DNA of 64,000 bases from a virus: the UHGV virus genome UHGV-0072281, one strand, 5' to 3'. Under the pieces are notes generated by a model. The model did not search any database, had not been told where the DNA came from, and saw nothing but the letters and a program-made list of their open reading frames with translations. This document shows positions 42,589 to 61,581 of the stretch, piece by piece (the stretch's first letter is position 1; the number at the start of each line of letters is the position of its first letter). A program made the translations under genes and the position numbers.

Positions 42589-43152
42589 GTGGCCACATCT
42601 TACGTACCTGATTTGAGTCTGACCTCAGCAGAGCTAGTGGTCGCTTTAATCAATCATGATAACGGGTTACAGCTTACGCTAAACGAAATCCGTATTAGCG
42701 GAACCGTAACAAACCCATCACCAACAACTTCGCGTCGTAACACCATCACCGAAATCAGTAAAATCAGAAAACCGGATGGTGCGTCTGTTGTGGTCTACTA
42801 CGACAGACTTGACGCCGATGAGGTATTAACGTCTGAACCTATTTTGATTTCGTTAGACGGTACCGAAGCGAATATCCGTGACGTTCTGAGTGTTGTAAAT
42901 GAACACTGCGGTACGAACTTACAGCCTGAAGACTTACGCGTTTCTGATATTACTTCAGGTAACGATCCTATTGCCGTTAACGTTGCCGACGATTCACCTG
43001 CGTGGATGAATGCGTTTATGGTGACGTTATTTGATAAAACTGAGCGTGCGTTAGCGAACGAAGAAGATGAAATCTTCTGCATCGGTGACGATAGCGTTCT
43101 TACCTTTGAGGTTCCAGATGACGACTCAGCTGAAGAAAACCCGACTACATGA
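42589..43152 (+). CDS. fibre-associated protein, paralogue 1 of a four-member family
   Basis: GTG start with GGAGGG upstream; shares PDLSLTS, VNHD, NLQ-x-DL and C-x-GDDSVLTF with the 48883 gene; precedes fibre 1. Confidence 0.55.
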   Translation: MATSYVPDLSLTSAELVVALINHDNGLQLTLNEIRISGTVTNPSPTTSRRNTITEISKIRKPDGASVVVYYDRLDADEVLTSEPILISLDGTEANIRDVLSVVNEHCGTNLQPEDLRVSDITSGNDPIAVNVADDSPAWMNAFMVTLFDKTERALANEEDEIFCIGDDSVLTFEVPDDDSAEENPTT

Positions 43153-43357
43153 ACTTGATGATTTTTACCGGTAATGGAGGACAAAGCAAACTTTTATCAA
43201 GACTTAGCAAACCAAAATCATGAAAACGCGAAATTGAACATCGCTTTCACGTTAGAAGATGATGTATTAAAACCAGGGCAATAGTAACCCGCTTATAAAA
43301 AATTGGGGGGTAAACTACTCTCCTGATCTTTTAGCTCCCGATAGAGAATTAAATATC

Positions 43358-46300
43358 ATGGCTAAAGCGGTAAAGAAAATTCGTTTACACGATTTACGTC
43401 CATACACCGGTGATATCGGTGAAGGCGTTTTACTTTTCTCCAAGGATGAGAAAGATTATAAGTTACCAGTCCGTGAGGTTATTGCAGATATTGACACCGT
43501 ACGTAATGCGGTGGCTGATGCACAAACAGCAGCAGCACAATCACAAGAAGCTGCAACTCAGGCTACGCAAGCAAAAGTTTTAGCAGAAGCAGCAAAACAA
43601 CAAACTGACACAGTTGCGGCAACGGTTGCACAACAAGCGCAAACCGTAACCGAAAAAGCAACAGAAGTCAGTACAAAACATACCGAAGTGTTAGCCGCGA
43701 AAACGGCGGTAGACGCTCAGGCTGTGTCCATTAATGAGAAAGCACAAGCGGTAGCGACAAGTGAGGCAAACGTCACACAAGCAGAAACTACCGTTACGAA
43801 GAAAGCAGAAACTGTTGCCACACAAGCCGGGCGGGTCGAACAGTCACTTACGGCAGTTAACGAAGCTGTTGCGTCGGTAGAGTCGTCGAAAGCTGCCGTA
43901 GAAGCTAAAGCAACACAAGTTACTTCAGACAAAGAAACCGCAGAGAATGCGGCAACTCGTTCTGAGGCAGCCGCTAAGCGTGCGGAAGAAATCGTTGCTC
44001 AAGGTACTGTTGATGCAACAACGACCAGTAAAGGTGTCGTTAAACTTAATAATACCTTAACCAGTGACTCTGTTACTGAAGCGGCTACACCGTCAACGGT
44101 TAAGCAGTTAAATGATGAATTGCAGTTAAAAGCAAACCGTCACAACCCAACTTTTACCGGTGTGGTAAAAGCACCGACTCCTGCTTCGGATTCTAACGAC
44201 ACGAGCGTCTCAACGACTGCATGGGTACGGCAAGCGATTGCTGAATTAGTGGACTCTTCACCCGAGACGTTAGATACGTTATCAGAAATTGCAGCCGCGT
44301 TAGGAAACGATCCTAACTTTGCGACAACGATAACGAACCAACTAGCGGGTAAACAGCCGTTAAGTCCGTTACTGACAGCGATTGCCGCAGTCACCACCGC
44401 TGCAAACAAACTCCCTTACTTTACCGGTAGTAATCAGGTAGGGTTAGCGGATTTCACCTCGACTGCTCGCGAATTATTAGCGAAAGGGTCGACGGCCGAT
44501 ATCATCAGCTTCCTGGGGTTGAAAACCACCGTTGATAAAGCTGCGGGCGCTATGCAACGTAGTTCTAACGGTGCCGATATTCCCGATAAAGCCACCTTCG
44601 CGAAGAACATCGGGTTGTCAGCAGAGACGTACCTGAAGTTTAATGGGGAGATGCCAGTAGATGCAGACATCAACACCTTCGGCCCGGTTGAAGCGTTTAT
44701 GGGCGTTTGGTCTAAAGCCACGTCTACGAACGCAACAGTTGCAAAGAATTTTCCAGAAGAAAACGCAGTTGGTTGTTTAGAAGTTTTCAAAGCGGGTAAC
44801 TACAGCGGAAGTCAACGTTTTACTGTACGTAACGGTAACATCTATACACGTCATCTTACTGCTGCATGGAATGGGACAAACGGTCCTTGGTCAGAATGGC
44901 GTAATGTTGCTGGTTCCGCCAGAACGTTGAACGAACAAAATAATCTGAATGACTTGGGTGGTGAGGCCGCACTAGGTGTTTGGAGAAACAGTTCGAGTAC
45001 ATTAGCAACAACCGCGCTGAATTATCCTGAAGAAGGCTCTTTTGCCCAGGGCGTATTAGAAGTTCTCAAAGGTGGCAACTATAGTTACACACAACGCTAC
45101 ACTACCCGCAGAGGCAATGTATACGTTCGTTGTCTACAAGCCACGTGGGACGCTTCAAACCCGCAATGGGAAGAATGGCGCTGTGTTGGTCATCAATCTG
45201 TCAGCACATATTTCGAAGGCGATCTCGACACGTTAACTTCGCCTAACCGTTATAGCATTACTGATAAAGCGACAAACGTTCCTTTAATCGACGGTACTAA
45301 AATTATCGGTATCTTGGACGTCAGTCGTCGTTTTGATAACATTAGTGTCGAACAAAAATTCACCTCGTTTGGTTCTGGGAGCAAAACTACAGGGCGTATT
45401 TTCACACGTGTATTCTCCGGTCAATCAAACGGTAAATGGAGTGAGTGGCGAGAGGTTTTCACCTCGTATTCACTTCCGTTAGTTTTAGGTATCGGTGGGG
45501 TTGCAGCTAAGGTTGACCCGTTAGACTGGCAAACCTACGACTTCGTTCCTGGACAGATGTTAACGACGCCGTTGAACACCATGAAAAACATTCCTGCAGG
45601 AATGGATTGGGGTACTATTGACGGTAACTTAGTTAACATCCTTGTAGGGCCGTCTGACGACACCGGTACTGGTCGGAGTATGCTGGTTTGGCGTAGCACA
45701 GTGTCTGTTGCTAACTATCGCTTCTTTGCGGTACGTATCGCTGGTGAGAAGGGTAGTCGTACGATTACGCCGCGTCAGATGCCTGTGTTGAACGCAGCGC
45801 ACACCTGGTCAGAGAAACAAACGTTCTCTAAAGGTTTAGCGGGTGAATTAACCGGTAATGCTTCTTCAGCAACGAAACTTCAAACAGCCCGTTTAATCGG
45901 CGGCGTAAGTTTCGACGGCACCAAGGACATTGCACTCCCTGGCGTTAACGCACAAGGTACGCAGAACACCACTGGGAATGCGGCTACCGCAACCAAATTA
46001 CAAACGGCTAGAAATATCAACGGTGTGAAATTCGATGGCTCTGGAGACATCAATATCAACACCTTAGTAGGTCGTGGACGTGTCACTGCTCTGGCTGGAT
46101 CAAACAAAGGTACACCTGGTATCCAGATGTACGAGGTTTACAATAACGGTTATCCGACCGCGTATGGTAATTTACTGCATTTAGGTGGTGCTACTGCCGT
46201 AGGTGAAGGTGAACTACTGATCGGTTGGTCTGGTACCAGTGGCGCACACGCACCTGTTTATATCCGTAGTCGTCGAGACACTACAGATGCGCCGTGGTCA

Positions 46301-60239: not shown

Positions 60240-61088
60240 ATGTCTCTTACGTCAAAACAGAAACTGCTAAAACTCATCAACACTGAAAACAATATTAGTC
60301 CACCGTTGACTTTCAGTGATGTTGATATCGGAGAACCTACTGGTACTGGGGTTGATACCCAGGTGGTTCTGACCTCTAAACTCAAAGGCGATGAGTCTAC
60401 TACTTTAACAGTGACTTACCACCGTCGTAATTTACCTGACTACTTAACCGGTGAGTTGGTTTTCGGTAACGACAGTGTGGTAACCGCATCAGATTTGCTT
60501 AATGCGATCAACGCAAAATACAACCTAAATATTTTACCCTCGGATATCGTTGACGCAAAAGTTGAAGGTGAAACCCATCAGCTTACCGCTAACGAGAAAT
60601 CTTACGAGTGGTGCGGTGTAGTAACACTTACGCTGCGTGATCCTATTGACCTGACTGAACTGTTACCAGTTACTCAATTAGAGAATCTGGTAGAGTATCC
60701 GTCCACTAAGAAAGGTAACGCTGCGGTTTATTCTCACCCGATCGATTTCACCGCAGAAAAAGATTACCTTGACCCGATTACTATCAACGACACCGTAGAC
60801 TTGGTCGAGTTAGCCGCTAAACTGGATGGCGTCGTTGACGAGAAATGGGTAAGTGTGCCTAAGAACGCGACTAACAACCTGTACGGTGCGAAGGTTATTT
60901 ACGATGGCCCAACCGCAGGTTACGAAGGCGCAAATACGAAGTTCACTCGTGTGTTGGTGCTGACGCTCAGCCCGCTGTGTTCTAACCTGACAGGTAATCT
61001 GTTAATCCACTTTAACGGTACCGATCGTCCGAAGTCGAAGATTGAATTAGCACAGACTAATCCGGTCTTACCGGGATTCTTAGATTAA
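60240..61088 (+). CDS. hypothetical protein, distant member of the fibre-associated family (282 aa)
   Basis: Shares a DLL-x-x-IN-x-x-Y-x-L-x-x-x-x-x-D motif with 61102, 42589 and 48883. Confidence 0.5.
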   Translation: MSLTSKQKLLKLINTENNISPPLTFSDVDIGEPTGTGVDTQVVLTSKLKGDESTTLTVTYHRRNLPDYLTGELVFGNDSVVTASDLLNAINAKYNLNILPSDIVDAKVEGETHQLTANEKSYEWCGVVTLTLRDPIDLTELLPVTQLENLVEYPSTKKGNAAVYSHPIDFTAEKDYLDPITINDTVDLVELAAKLDGVVDEKWVSVPKNATNNLYGAKVIYDGPTAGYEGANTKFTRVLVLTLSPLCSNLTGNLLIHFNGTDRPKSKIELAQTNPVLPGFLD

Positions 61089-61101
61089 GAGGATTACAGT
61101 A

Positions 61102-61581
61102 ATGACCAATCAAGAAACTATCTTCGACCTTATTAAAAAGGCTAACCCAGACGCTGAGTTCGACACCACCAAAGTCACACTGGGTGACCCGGTCGTAACC
61201 ACCGGTACGTACAATACCGAAATCACAGTTGCGTCAATTAAGAATCTCGGTTATACTAACGAACAAACGTTCCAGTATAACCGGATCGACGCAGGTTTGT
61301 ATTTCCTGAACGTATTACCGAAACTGTTGGTGGAATCGGCAACAACGACCGCTGACTTACTGCCTGTCATTAACGAGCAGTACAGCCTAACCCTTACAGA
61401 AGACGATGTATGGGTAGAGCAGGTTGGTGAGTTACCGTTAGACGGAAGCGCAATCGAACACGGTATTTTCTTCCGTCCTGAGTGTCTGACCTGGGTTGGC
61501 GGTTTTACAGTGCGAGTTGCGCGTAAACCGGCTGGCGCTACGCCACCCGAGACGGGGGCTCGCGCTAAGAAGAAAAAATAA
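61102..61581 (+). CDS. hypothetical protein, distant member of the same family (159 aa)
   Basis: AAGAGGA RBS; motif as above; C-terminal Lys-rich tail. Confidence 0.5.
   Translation: MTNQETIFDLIKKANPDAEFDTTKVTLGDPVVTTGTYNTEITVASIKNLGYTNEQTFQYNRIDAGLYFLNVLPKLLVESATTTADLLPVINEQYSLTLTEDDVWVEQVGELPLDGSAIEHGIFFRPECLTWVGGFTVRVARKPAGATPPETGARAKKKK

What the first reader, a model, noticed from the sequence alone, without database searches (positions are those of the whole stretch)
42589..61581. Four-member paralogous family, two members each immediately upstream of a fibre gene
Genes at 42589 and 48883 share PDLSLTS, VNHD, NLQ-x-DL and a C-terminal C-x-GDDSV-LTF motif, and each precedes a fibre gene. 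Genes at 60240 and 61102 share a weaker DLL-x-x-IN-x-x-Y-x-L motif with them. Likely adaptor, attachment or assembly factors duplicated alongside the fibres.
Basis: seen in the sequence. Interest (0 to 1): 0.4.

Follow-up and report, generated by a model that had tools for sequence, protein, structure and literature searches.

The report
Jumbo-phage DUF7941 fibre-scaffold protein family
The four genes are real relatives of one another, with a fifth in the window. They belong to DUF7941, a protein family already described in nucleus-forming jumbo phages whose members are thought to link head-to-tail into filaments on the outer baseplate. The two small copies next to the fibre genes are probably the pieces that couple exchangeable fibres to that scaffold.

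Summary
All four proteins pass the Pfam gathering threshold for DUF7941. Alignment scores are 3.8 to 40 SD above shuffled controls. A fifth member lies at 22114-22641.

The window is an SPN3US-like jumbo phage. The family was described as SPN3US 'paralog family B' in 2016/17, and phiKZ gp127 is modelled in the outer baseplate (PDB 9XQD). A 2026 Goslar preprint calls it a self-assembling head-to-tail filament family.

- 60240 (N-terminal domain, linker, C-terminal domain) and 61102 (N-terminal domain only) match the Goslar gp22/gp23 pair.
- 42589 and 48883 are orthologue and divergent paralogue of SPN3US gp122: an N-terminal domain plus a disordered acidic tail ending in [VI]LCIGDDxVLT[FY].

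What I add: both downstream fibre genes start with a shared 36-residue N-terminal module. In all 24 public phage records where that module was detected, it begins right after the gp122-type gene. In E. coli phage EC001, compared with Salmonella phage SPN3US, gp122 and gp123 were swapped as one unit inside 94-96% identical flanks.

This supports a functional coupling (adaptor, or possibly assembly factor), but physical contact is untested. Verdict: new members of a known family, moderate-to-low interest.

The parts
42589..43152 (+). gp122-type DUF7941 protein A (187 aa, GTG start): N-terminal domain about residues 1-150, plus a disordered acidic tail with the FCIGDDSVLTF motif
   Evidence: Pfam DUF7941 71.5 bits. 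phrog_2935 4e-28. 45% identical to SPN3US gp122. AF2 model: N-terminal domain folded, residues 156-187 at pLDDT<50. Foldseek: only phiKZ gp127 N-terminal domain, E=9e-8. GGAGG ribosome-binding site.
48883..49395 (+). gp122-type DUF7941 protein B (170 aa, GTG start), a divergent paralogue of A, with the tail CGIGDDSVVLTFDNKILTF
   Evidence: BLASTP vs A: E=1e-31. Pfam 51.4 bits. Best public phage matches are only 29-36% identical, and they are the single gp122 gene of each phage. Present in relatives L002-L006.
60240..61088 (+). Full-length DUF7941 protein (282 aa): N-terminal domain, linker, C-terminal domain, plus a C-terminal extension IELAQTNPVLPGFLD that resembles the family linker motif. 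Orthologue of SPN3US gp138.
   Evidence: Pfam 176 bits over profile positions 5-275 of 276. 46% identical to SPN3US gp138. PDB 9xqd_0 (phiKZ gp127) E=6e-6 by sequence. Foldseek E=1.9e-4, probability 1.00. AF2 mean pLDDT 79.5. C-terminal peptide scores 5.1 bits against the linker HMM, 0 of 300 shuffles reach it.
61102..61581 (+). DUF7941 protein with N-terminal domain only (159 aa) and a short Pro/Lys-rich tail; no linker motif
   Evidence: Pfam 98.7 bits over profile positions 7-155. Best SPN3US match is the gp141 N-terminal domain, 37%. Tail does not match the linker HMM.
22114..22641 (+). Fifth DUF7941 member (175 aa from the ATG; listed ORF starts at TTG 22072): N-terminal domain plus a canonical linker-motif tail. 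Encoded between the homologues of phiKZ baseplate wedge gp128 and peripheral-band gp139.
   Evidence: Own HMM E=1.2e-8. phrog_2935 1.4e-49. Homologue P0034 starts MAYRVDL and carries PF25613. Tail scores 22 bits against the linker HMM, 0 of 300 shuffles reach it. Flanking genes hit PDB 9xqs_C PHIKZ128 at 5e-82 and 9xpg_A PHIKZ139 at 3e-34. Syntenic with Goslar gp35-gp34-gp33-gp32.
43358..43465 (+). 36-residue N-terminal 'anchor' module of the long fibre (MAKAVKKIRLHDLRPYTGDIGEGVLLFSKDEKDYKL)
   Evidence: BLASTP vs the N-terminus of 49399: E=6e-9. 56% identical to the SPN3US gp123 N-terminus. Alignment A2 has invariant K7, R9, H11, L13, V24, L26, S28, Y34. The anchor HMM finds only two ORFs in the window.
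43358..47674 (+). Long tail fibre (1438 aa): anchor module, fibre repeats, a Mu S / T4 gp34-like region and an S16 gp37-like tip
   Evidence: Pfam Gp34_trimer, Phage_fiber_2, Peptidase_S74. PDB 8ju3, 4uxe, 6f45.
47678..48780 (+). Two gp38-like fibre-tip adhesin genes (47678-48220 and 48277-48780)
   Evidence: Pfam Gp38_N 4e-11 and 1e-20; phrog_1121 'tail fiber adhesin'. 85-89% DNA identity to Stx-phage adhesin genes over about 150 nt.
49399..51531 (+). Second protein carrying the anchor module (710 aa); weak Ig-like and beta-propeller-like signals; probable receptor-binding protein. Anchor = 49399-49506.
   Evidence: Anchor HMM 72 bits. Pfam Ig_Rha78A_N 3e-6 and weak beta-propeller hits. No PDB sequence match. 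Absent from relative L002.
51541..52101 (+). DUF4376 protein (186 aa), a family annotated with tail fibre proteins
   Evidence: Pfam DUF4376 2.4e-12; phrog_10508.
42527..42554 (+). Terminator-like hairpin followed by a T-run, immediately upstream of 42589. It marks the left edge of the fibre block.
   Evidence: 11-pair stem, 8 GC pairs; sequence read.
52105..52131 (+). Terminator-like hairpin at the right edge of the fibre block
   Evidence: 12-pair stem, 9 GC pairs. Conserved in L002.

Best explanation
The genes encode DUF7941 proteins (SPN3US 'paralog family B'), a virion family restricted to phiKZ/SPN3US-like nucleus-forming jumbo phages.

Shown here:
- All five window members share the roughly 150-residue N-terminal domain, whose only structural relative is phiKZ gp127, a protein modelled in the outer baseplate.
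- The members differ in what follows that domain. 60240 has linker plus C-terminal domain plus a second linker-like peptide. 22114 has a canonical linker peptide. 61102 has none. 42589 and 48883 have a disordered acidic tail ending in a conserved [VI]LCIGDDxVLT[FY] strand motif.

Taken from the literature:
- The linker of one protomer docks on the N-terminal domain of the next, giving head-to-tail chains anchored at the peripheral baseplate.

Inferred:
- 22114, encoded between the wedge and band proteins, is the baseplate-proximal unit.
- 60240 and 61102 are the bulk chain subunits, corresponding to Goslar gp22/gp23.
- 42589 and 48883 (gp122-type) are coupling subunits. They join fibres carrying the 36-residue N-terminal anchor module to this scaffold. 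This lets unrelated receptor-binding bodies be swapped in behind a constant anchor: a T4/S16-like long fibre with gp38 adhesins, and a 710-aa Ig/propeller-like protein.

Family identity is near certain. The adaptor role of the gp122-type pair is about 40% likely.
For: Family:
- Pfam DUF7941 above threshold for all four.
- Foldseek gives phiKZ gp127 (9xqd_0) as the only significant hit for both models.
- SPN3US synteny, with 45-46% identity to gp122 and gp138.
- Published placement of gp127 at the end of the gp139 band in the phiKZ outer baseplate (PMC13250141).
- Goslar gp22 forms filaments, and AF3 predicts head-to-tail docking (bioRxiv 10.64898/2026.04.21.720040).

Coupling to fibres:
- Both fibre genes share the anchor module.
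- In all 24 public phage records where the anchor was detected, it starts 0-15 nt after, or slightly overlapping, the gp122-type gene. Few independent lineages are involved.
- In EC001 vs SPN3US, a 0.9-kb segment was replaced as one unit inside 94-96% identical flanks. It runs from codon ~37 of gp122 through all of gp123 into the first codons of gp124.
- The gp122-type tail is predicted disordered although its motif is conserved, as expected for a segment that folds on binding.
- The tails are acidic and the anchor N-termini are basic.
- SPN3US gp123 and gp124 are detected in virions and are not flagged as head proteins.
- Elsewhere the DUF7941 N-terminal domain is fused directly to lectin, BNR, propeller and Ig domains. 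It therefore acts as a carrier for host-binding domains.
Against: - No physical interaction was tested.
- SPN3US gp122 gave 0 spectra in wild-type virions, which fits an assembly factor as well as a low-copy adaptor.
- In relatives, two gp122-type genes serve 2-4 anchor-bearing genes. In L002 the second copy has no fibre gene after it.
- Among 150 representative proteins, no natural fusion of DUF7941 with the anchor module was found.
- The anchor does not resemble the DUF7941 linker, so the docking mode cannot be copied from the Goslar model.
- SPN3US proteomics placed family B in tailless particles, which conflicts with a baseplate location.
Confidence: 0.5

Rival explanations
1. The gp122-type proteins (42589, 48883) are non-structural assembly factors. 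They hold or fold the N-terminal anchor of the fibre proteins during assembly and are then released, like tail-fibre chaperones.
For: - SPN3US gp122 was not detected in wild-type virions, whereas the neighbouring gp123 and gp124 were.
- Strict adjacency to the anchor-bearing gene, and exchange of the pair as one unit, fit a chaperone-client pair equally well.
Against: - The fold is that of a virion baseplate protein, and every characterised relative is a virion component.
- A small protein at 6-12 copies per virion is easily missed by spectral counting, and 5 spectra were seen in one mutant preparation.
- No similarity to known fibre chaperone families in Pfam or PHROGs.
Confidence: 0.2
2. The gp122-type proteins are just further subunits or caps of the DUF7941 filament network, with no specific relation to the adjacent fibres. 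Adjacency would reflect clustering of host-recognition genes and cassette hitch-hiking.
For: - In L002 the second copy has no fibre gene downstream, and copy number does not track the number of anchor-bearing genes.
- The family is highly expandable (20 members in SPN3US), with members scattered near baseplate genes.
- The 24 records showing adjacency represent few independent lineages.
Against: - The EC001/SPN3US replacement begins inside gp122 and runs through all of gp123 into the first codons of gp124.
- The gp122-type tail motif is confined to this small subfamily, which always sits next to an anchor gene in sequenced phages.
Confidence: 0.2
3. They are head-associated or ejected proteins, as SPN3US paralog family B was originally classified.
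For: SPN3US gp83, gp138-154, gp160/161 and gp237 were found in tailless particles of the gene 64 amber mutant, and gp141 and gp160 were annotated 'Head ejection?'.
Against: - phiKZ gp127 is modelled in outer baseplate density.
- Purified Goslar gp22 self-assembles into filaments, which could co-purify with heads.
- Family members are fused to lectin, BNR or Ig domains, which make sense only outside the capsid.
- 22114 is encoded between two baseplate genes.
Confidence: 0.07

Closest known systems
Goslar gp22/gp23 and the other Goslar DUF7941 proteins (bioRxiv 10.64898/2026.04.21.720040)
   Same: - Same Pfam family.
- The same adjacent pair of a full-length protein (N-terminal domain, linker, C-terminal domain) followed by a short one lacking the C-terminal domain, as in 60240/61102.
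- The same genomic placement of a member between the gp128-like and gp139-like baseplate genes (22114 corresponds to Goslar gp34).
   Different: - Goslar joins host-binding domains covalently to the DUF7941 N-terminal domain (gp86, gp92, gp161). Here the fibres are separate proteins with their own 36-residue anchor, next to separate gp122-type genes.
- 61102 lacks the linker that Goslar gp23 keeps.
- No gp122-type tail motif is described for Goslar, and the best Goslar match to 42589 covers only the N-terminal domain.
phiKZ gp126/gp127 (PDB 9XQD; PMC13250141)
   Same: The N-terminal domain fold is the only significant structural match for both models (TM about 0.65-0.67 on the target). The genes lie next to the wedge gene gp128.
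   Different: - Sequence identity is only 17-18%.
- phiKZ has about three members, and its fibres (gp131-135 hexamers) attach under gp130.
- The N-terminal anchor module seen here was found by tblastn only in SPN3US-like Salmonella, Erwinia and Proteus phage records, none of them phiKZ.
SPN3US paralog family B, especially gp122 and gp138 (PMC5105663, PMC5694885)
   Same: - 42589 is the positional and sequence orthologue of gp122, and 60240 of gp138.
- The same flanking genes: DUF488-like upstream, endolysin downstream.
   Different: - SPN3US has one gp122-type gene followed by gp123 and gp124, and a 17-gene tandem array gp138-154.
- The window has two gp122-type genes, lacks gp123 and gp124, carries T4/S16-like fibre genes instead, and has only two genes where SPN3US has the array.
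Modular receptor-binding proteins with a conserved N-terminal attachment domain (branched tailspike or fibre systems of phages such as G7C, CBA120 and phi92). This comparison is from general knowledge and was not tested here.
   Same: A short conserved N-terminus followed by unrelated, exchangeable receptor-binding bodies, with recombination junctions at the module border.
   Different: There is no sequence relationship. The proposed docking partner here is a DUF7941 protein, not another tailspike or a baseplate protein of the T4 type.

Membership tests
Pfam DUF7941 (PF25613) | Whole-protein score above the curated gathering threshold (27 bits) | tested here: met
   71.5, 51.4, 176.1 and 98.7 bits for 42589, 48883, 60240 and 61102. 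The fifth member was not scanned directly, but its near-identical homologue P0034 carries PF25613.
Pfam DUF7941 (PF25613) | N-terminal globular domain with the fold of phiKZ gp127 residues 1-150 | tested here: met
   Foldseek vs PDB: 9xqd_0 is the only hit with E<=0.001 for the 60240 model (E=1.9e-4, TMt 0.65) and for the 42589 model (E=9.4e-8, TMt 0.67).
Pfam DUF7941 (PF25613) | Full architecture: N-terminal domain, disordered linker, C-terminal globular domain | tested here: met
   Met only by 60240: profile positions 5-275 of 276, and the AF2 model shows two folded domains with a low-confidence linker at 146-156. The other four cover about positions 3-155 only, as Goslar gp23 does.
Pfam DUF7941 (PF25613) | Encoded by a nucleus-forming jumbo phage (phiKZ-like; the Goslar preprint states the family is exclusive to them) | tested here: met
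   The window has homologues of phiKZ gp128 and gp139 and gene-by-gene synteny with SPN3US. The nuclear-shell gene itself was not looked for in the window.
DUF7941 filament model (Goslar preprint) | Head-to-tail oligomerisation through docking of the linker on the next N-terminal domain | not testable with these tools
Indirect evidence only: a canonical linker motif at the C-terminus of 22114 and a weaker one at the end of 60240.
DUF7941 filament model (Goslar preprint) | Presence in virions at the peripheral baseplate | not testable with these tools
   Published data only: phiKZ gp127 in 9XQD. The SPN3US family B assignment to tailless particles conflicts with this.
SPN3US paralog family B, gp122 subtype | Orthology by sequence and position to SPN3US gp122, downstream of the DUF488-like gene and directly upstream of a gene starting with the gp123-type N-terminus | tested here: met
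   42589: 45% identity over 173 aa, and the same neighbours. The downstream fibre shares the gp123 N-terminus at 56% over 41 aa. 48883 matches the same gene at 29%.
Known tail-fibre chaperone or adaptor families (T4 gp38/Tfa-type, DUF4376 and similar) | Profile match to such a family | tested here: not met
   Pfam and PHROGs give only DUF7941 and 'virion structural protein' families for the four proteins. The gp38_N and DUF4376 matches belong to separate neighbouring genes.

The most novel reading that the evidence does not exclude
gp122-type DUF7941 proteins are dedicated plug adaptors. Their acidic C-terminal strand motif and/or N-terminal domain binds the basic 36-residue N-terminal anchor of otherwise unrelated fibres, and their DUF7941 domain plugs into the head-to-tail DUF7941 scaffold of the outer baseplate. 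This would give SPN3US-like jumbo phages a two-part, swappable docking system for host-range modules. The gp122+gp123 swap between the E. coli phage EC001 and the Salmonella phage SPN3US would be a natural example.
Probability: 0.3. Interest if true: 0.55.

Novelty: new member of a known kind. Interest (0 to 1): 0.3.

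Why it matters
How jumbo phages of the phiKZ/SPN3US group attach their host-recognition fibres is still unresolved. The peripheral baseplate and fibres could not be modelled in Goslar, and they were modelled only by docking predictions in phiKZ.

The constant pairing of a gp122-type DUF7941 gene with a conserved 36-residue fibre N-terminus, and its exchange as a unit between phages with different hosts, points to a concrete protein pair to test. The same pair could serve as a junction for engineering host range in these phages.

The family itself, and its likely role, are already in the literature.

Tried and rejected
1. Does the fibre anchor module mimic the DUF7941 linker and dock on an N-terminal domain in the same way? 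Rejected. hhalign of the anchor profile against the family profile gave probability 0.2%. A linker HMM scored real anchors no better than 2,200 shuffles. An apparent MAFFT alignment of the two was an end effect.

2. Co-folding a gp122-type protein with the fibre N-terminus. 

3. Rosetta-stone evidence. No protein among the 215 collected, including the 150 family representatives, combines DUF7941 with the anchor module.

4. A profile search for the anchor in the large protein database returned only 7 short fragments and no context.

5. Near-identical DNA in the public phage collection. None was found apart from a 150-nt gp38 segment. Close relatives (85-94% protein identity) exist only as contigs in Salmonella and E. 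coli read sets and assemblies.

6. The tails of 42589, 48883 and 61102 do not match the family linker motif. The Goslar docking mode therefore cannot simply be assumed for them.

7. Literature on SPN3US host range gave nothing on gp122 or gp123.

Full report
**Observation**

The four ORFs exist as stated and are homologous. BLASTP gives E=1e-31 for 42589 vs 48883 (33% identity over the full length), 5e-7 for 42589 vs 60240 and 5e-4 for 60240 vs 61102. Only 48883 vs 61102 is marginal on its own.

All four pass the Pfam gathering threshold for DUF7941/PF25613, with 71.5, 51.4, 176.1 and 98.7 bits against a cut-off of 27. They also hit PHROGs 2935 and 1037, 'virion structural protein'. Smith-Waterman scores exceed 300 shuffles by z = 3.8 to 40 for every pair.

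An HMM built from the four finds a fifth member at 22072-22641, with probable ATG at 22114 (E=1.2e-8; phrog_2935 1.4e-49). Only 60240 spans the whole 276-position profile. The others cover the first ~155 positions.

**What the window is**

No close DNA relative exists in the public phage collection. At protein level and in gene order, the window is an SPN3US-like jumbo phage.
- 42589 is the orthologue of SPN3US gp122 (45% identity).
- 60240 is the orthologue of gp138 (46%).
- 61644 is the endolysin (61%).
- 19911-22106 is the homologue of phiKZ wedge protein gp128 (PDB 9xqs_C, 5e-82).
- 22634-23521 is the homologue of phiKZ peripheral-band protein gp139 (3e-34).

Relatives at 85-94% protein identity occur only as contigs in Salmonella and E. 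coli read sets and assemblies.

**What is known about the family**

Thomas et al. 2016 and Ali et al. 2017 described it as SPN3US 'paralog family B'. It has 20 members (gp83, gp138-154, gp160/161, gp237), with gp122 as a speculative extra member that was not detected in wild-type virions. They assigned the family to the head because members were found in tailless particles.

The 2026 phiKZ atlas places gp127 in the outer baseplate, at the end of the band of gp139 dimers (PDB 9XQD).

The 2026 Goslar preprint names the family DUF7941 and reports the following:
- ten members in Goslar;
- about 580 copies of full-length gp22 and about 2,140 copies of the shorter gp23 per virion;
- AlphaFold3 head-to-tail docking of one protomer's linker on the next protomer's N-terminal domain;
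- filaments of purified gp22;
- fusions of the N-terminal domain to glycan-binding or glycan-degrading domains.

The authors propose a filament 'cloud' radiating from the peripheral baseplate.

**Structure checks made here**

- The AF2 model of 60240 (52-sequence alignment, mean pLDDT 79.5) has two folded domains joined by a low-confidence linker, and a disordered C-terminus.
- The AF2 model of 42589 (pLDDT 74) has a folded N-terminal domain, and residues 156-187 are disordered.
- For both models, the only Foldseek hit in the PDB with E<=0.001 is the phiKZ gp127 N-terminal domain (E=1.9e-4 and 9.4e-8, probability 1.00, TM 0.65-0.67 on the target).
- By sequence, 60240 also hits 9xqd_0 at 6e-6.

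**How the five members differ**

Family alignments (A1, A5) and sequences of long family members show a recurrent peptide after each N-terminal domain, roughly L-x-L-A-x-x-V-x-x-P-V-L-x-G-F.
- The tail of 22114 matches an HMM of this linker, built without window sequences, at 22 bits (0 of 300 shuffles reach it).
- The extra C-terminal peptide of 60240 (IELAQTNPVLPGFLD) matches weakly, at 5.1 bits (0 of 300 shuffles).
- The tails of 42589, 48883 and 61102 do not match.
- 61102 ends in a short Pro/Lys-rich tail.
- The gp122-type tails are acidic and end in [VI]LCIGDDxVLT[FY]. This motif is conserved in SPN3US, Asesino and pEa_SNUABM_29, and is altered in EC001. Among 150 family representatives the motif occurs in only three clusters.

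**The fibre link: the new part**

Both downstream genes begin with the same 36-residue module (E=6e-9). Eight positions are invariant across 11 sequences. No other ORF in the window carries the module.

The same module heads SPN3US gp123. In close relatives it heads proteins of 153, 206, 273, 1385, 1475 and 1479 aa with unrelated bodies.

tblastn finds the module in 24 public phage records. In every one it begins 0-15 nt after the gp122-type gene, or overlaps its end by about 17 nt. In EC001 and pEa_SNUABM_29, a diverged version occupies the same position.

Most telling is the comparison of EC001 (E. coli host) with SPN3US (Salmonella host). The flanks are 94-96% identical in DNA. The segment from about codon 37 of gp122, through all of gp123, into the first codons of gp124 is replaced by an allele with 48% and 39% protein identity. 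The two genes therefore travel and diverge together.

SPN3US proteomics detected gp123 (7 spectra) and gp124 (73 spectra) in virions without a 'head' flag, and gp122 not at all in wild type.

**Limits of the link**

- Relatives carry two gp122-type genes but 2-4 anchor-bearing genes.
- In L002 the second copy is followed by a terminator and the next conserved gene.
- The window lacks the gp123/gp124 pair that L002-L004 and SPN3US have after the first copy, which leaves a 206-nt gap. It has 2.8 kb (the 710-aa protein plus DUF4376) that L002 lacks.
- The whole block 42589-52101 is bracketed by strong terminator-like hairpins.

**Mechanism**

Family identity and the N-terminal domain fold are shown. 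Head-to-tail chaining and baseplate anchoring are taken from the two 2026 papers.

My inference is a division of labour:
- 22114 is the baseplate-proximal unit, because it is encoded between the wedge and band genes and has a canonical donor peptide.
- 60240 and 61102 are the bulk subunits, matching the gp22/gp23 pattern.
- 42589 and 48883 are couplers between the scaffold and the anchor-bearing fibres.

The rivals are an assembly-chaperone role, filament subunits unrelated to the fibres, and the older head assignment. The head assignment may reflect self-assembled filaments co-purifying with heads. That is my inference from the filament formation reported.

**Breadth of the family**

A full HMMER scan with the gp122-type profile finds 238 clusters at E<=0.001. 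Of the best 150, 69 are <=200 aa, 43 are 201-400 aa, 29 are 401-1000 aa and 9 are >1000 aa. The long ones carry one to several N-terminal DUF7941 domains fused to Laminin_G_3, BNR, beta-propeller, Ig or SPRY domains. This supports the view that the domain is a carrier for host-binding modules.

**Verdict**

The specific pairing of gp122-type genes with a conserved fibre N-terminus is a modest new lead that can be tested directly.

Noticed in passing
window 48818-48827 and 48265-48274; L002 ~19725, L003 ~19690, L006 ~15285: There is a G10 homopolymer about 55 nt upstream of the second gp122-type gene. It is conserved in relatives at different lengths (G12, G10, G9). A second G10 lies just upstream of the second gp38-like gene. 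These may be slippage-prone tracts affecting expression.
   Followed up: partly
window 60240-62234 vs SPN3US 115393-136042 (L001 20001-40650): SPN3US has a 17-gene tandem array of family members (gp138-154, about 19 kb) plus gp155 between gp138 and the endolysin. The window has only 60240 and 61102 there, so family size differs about tenfold at this locus between related phages.
   Followed up: partly
window 43153-43357 vs L002 10583-13960: Relative to close relatives and to SPN3US, the window (and contig L006) lacks the gp123-like (153 aa) and gp124-like (about 1002 aa, 'tail-associated protein') genes. About 74 nt of unrelated sequence sits at the junction.
   Followed up: yes
L010 (EC001) 4605-5539 vs L001 (SPN3US) 10537-11472: Two phages classed in the same species but isolated on E. 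coli and Salmonella differ by a clean replacement of most of gp122, all of gp123 and the first codons of gp124, while gp124 is otherwise 97% identical. This is a candidate host-range determinant.
   Followed up: partly
window 43358-48780: The long fibre is a mosaic of a jumbo-phage anchor, a Mu S / T4 gp34-like region and an S16 gp37-like tip (PDB 6f45). It is followed by two different gp38-like adhesin genes. About 150 nt of one adhesin gene is 85-89% identical to adhesin genes of Stx prophages of E. coli and Shigella, which suggests recent exchange with temperate phages.
   Followed up: partly
window 9702-11759 (-) inside 9534-11819 (+): A 685-aa open reading frame lies antisense to, and almost entirely within, a 761-aa ORF on the + strand. 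This is unusually long for a chance antisense frame.
   Followed up: no
P0001 (NCBI Salmonella Enteritidis assembly, 123-kb contig), P0005/P0006 (E. coli, Shigella flexneri partial proteins): Close relatives of this lytic-type jumbo phage turn up as large contigs in bacterial isolate assemblies and read sets. This suggests carrier-state infection or contamination of cultures.
   Followed up: no
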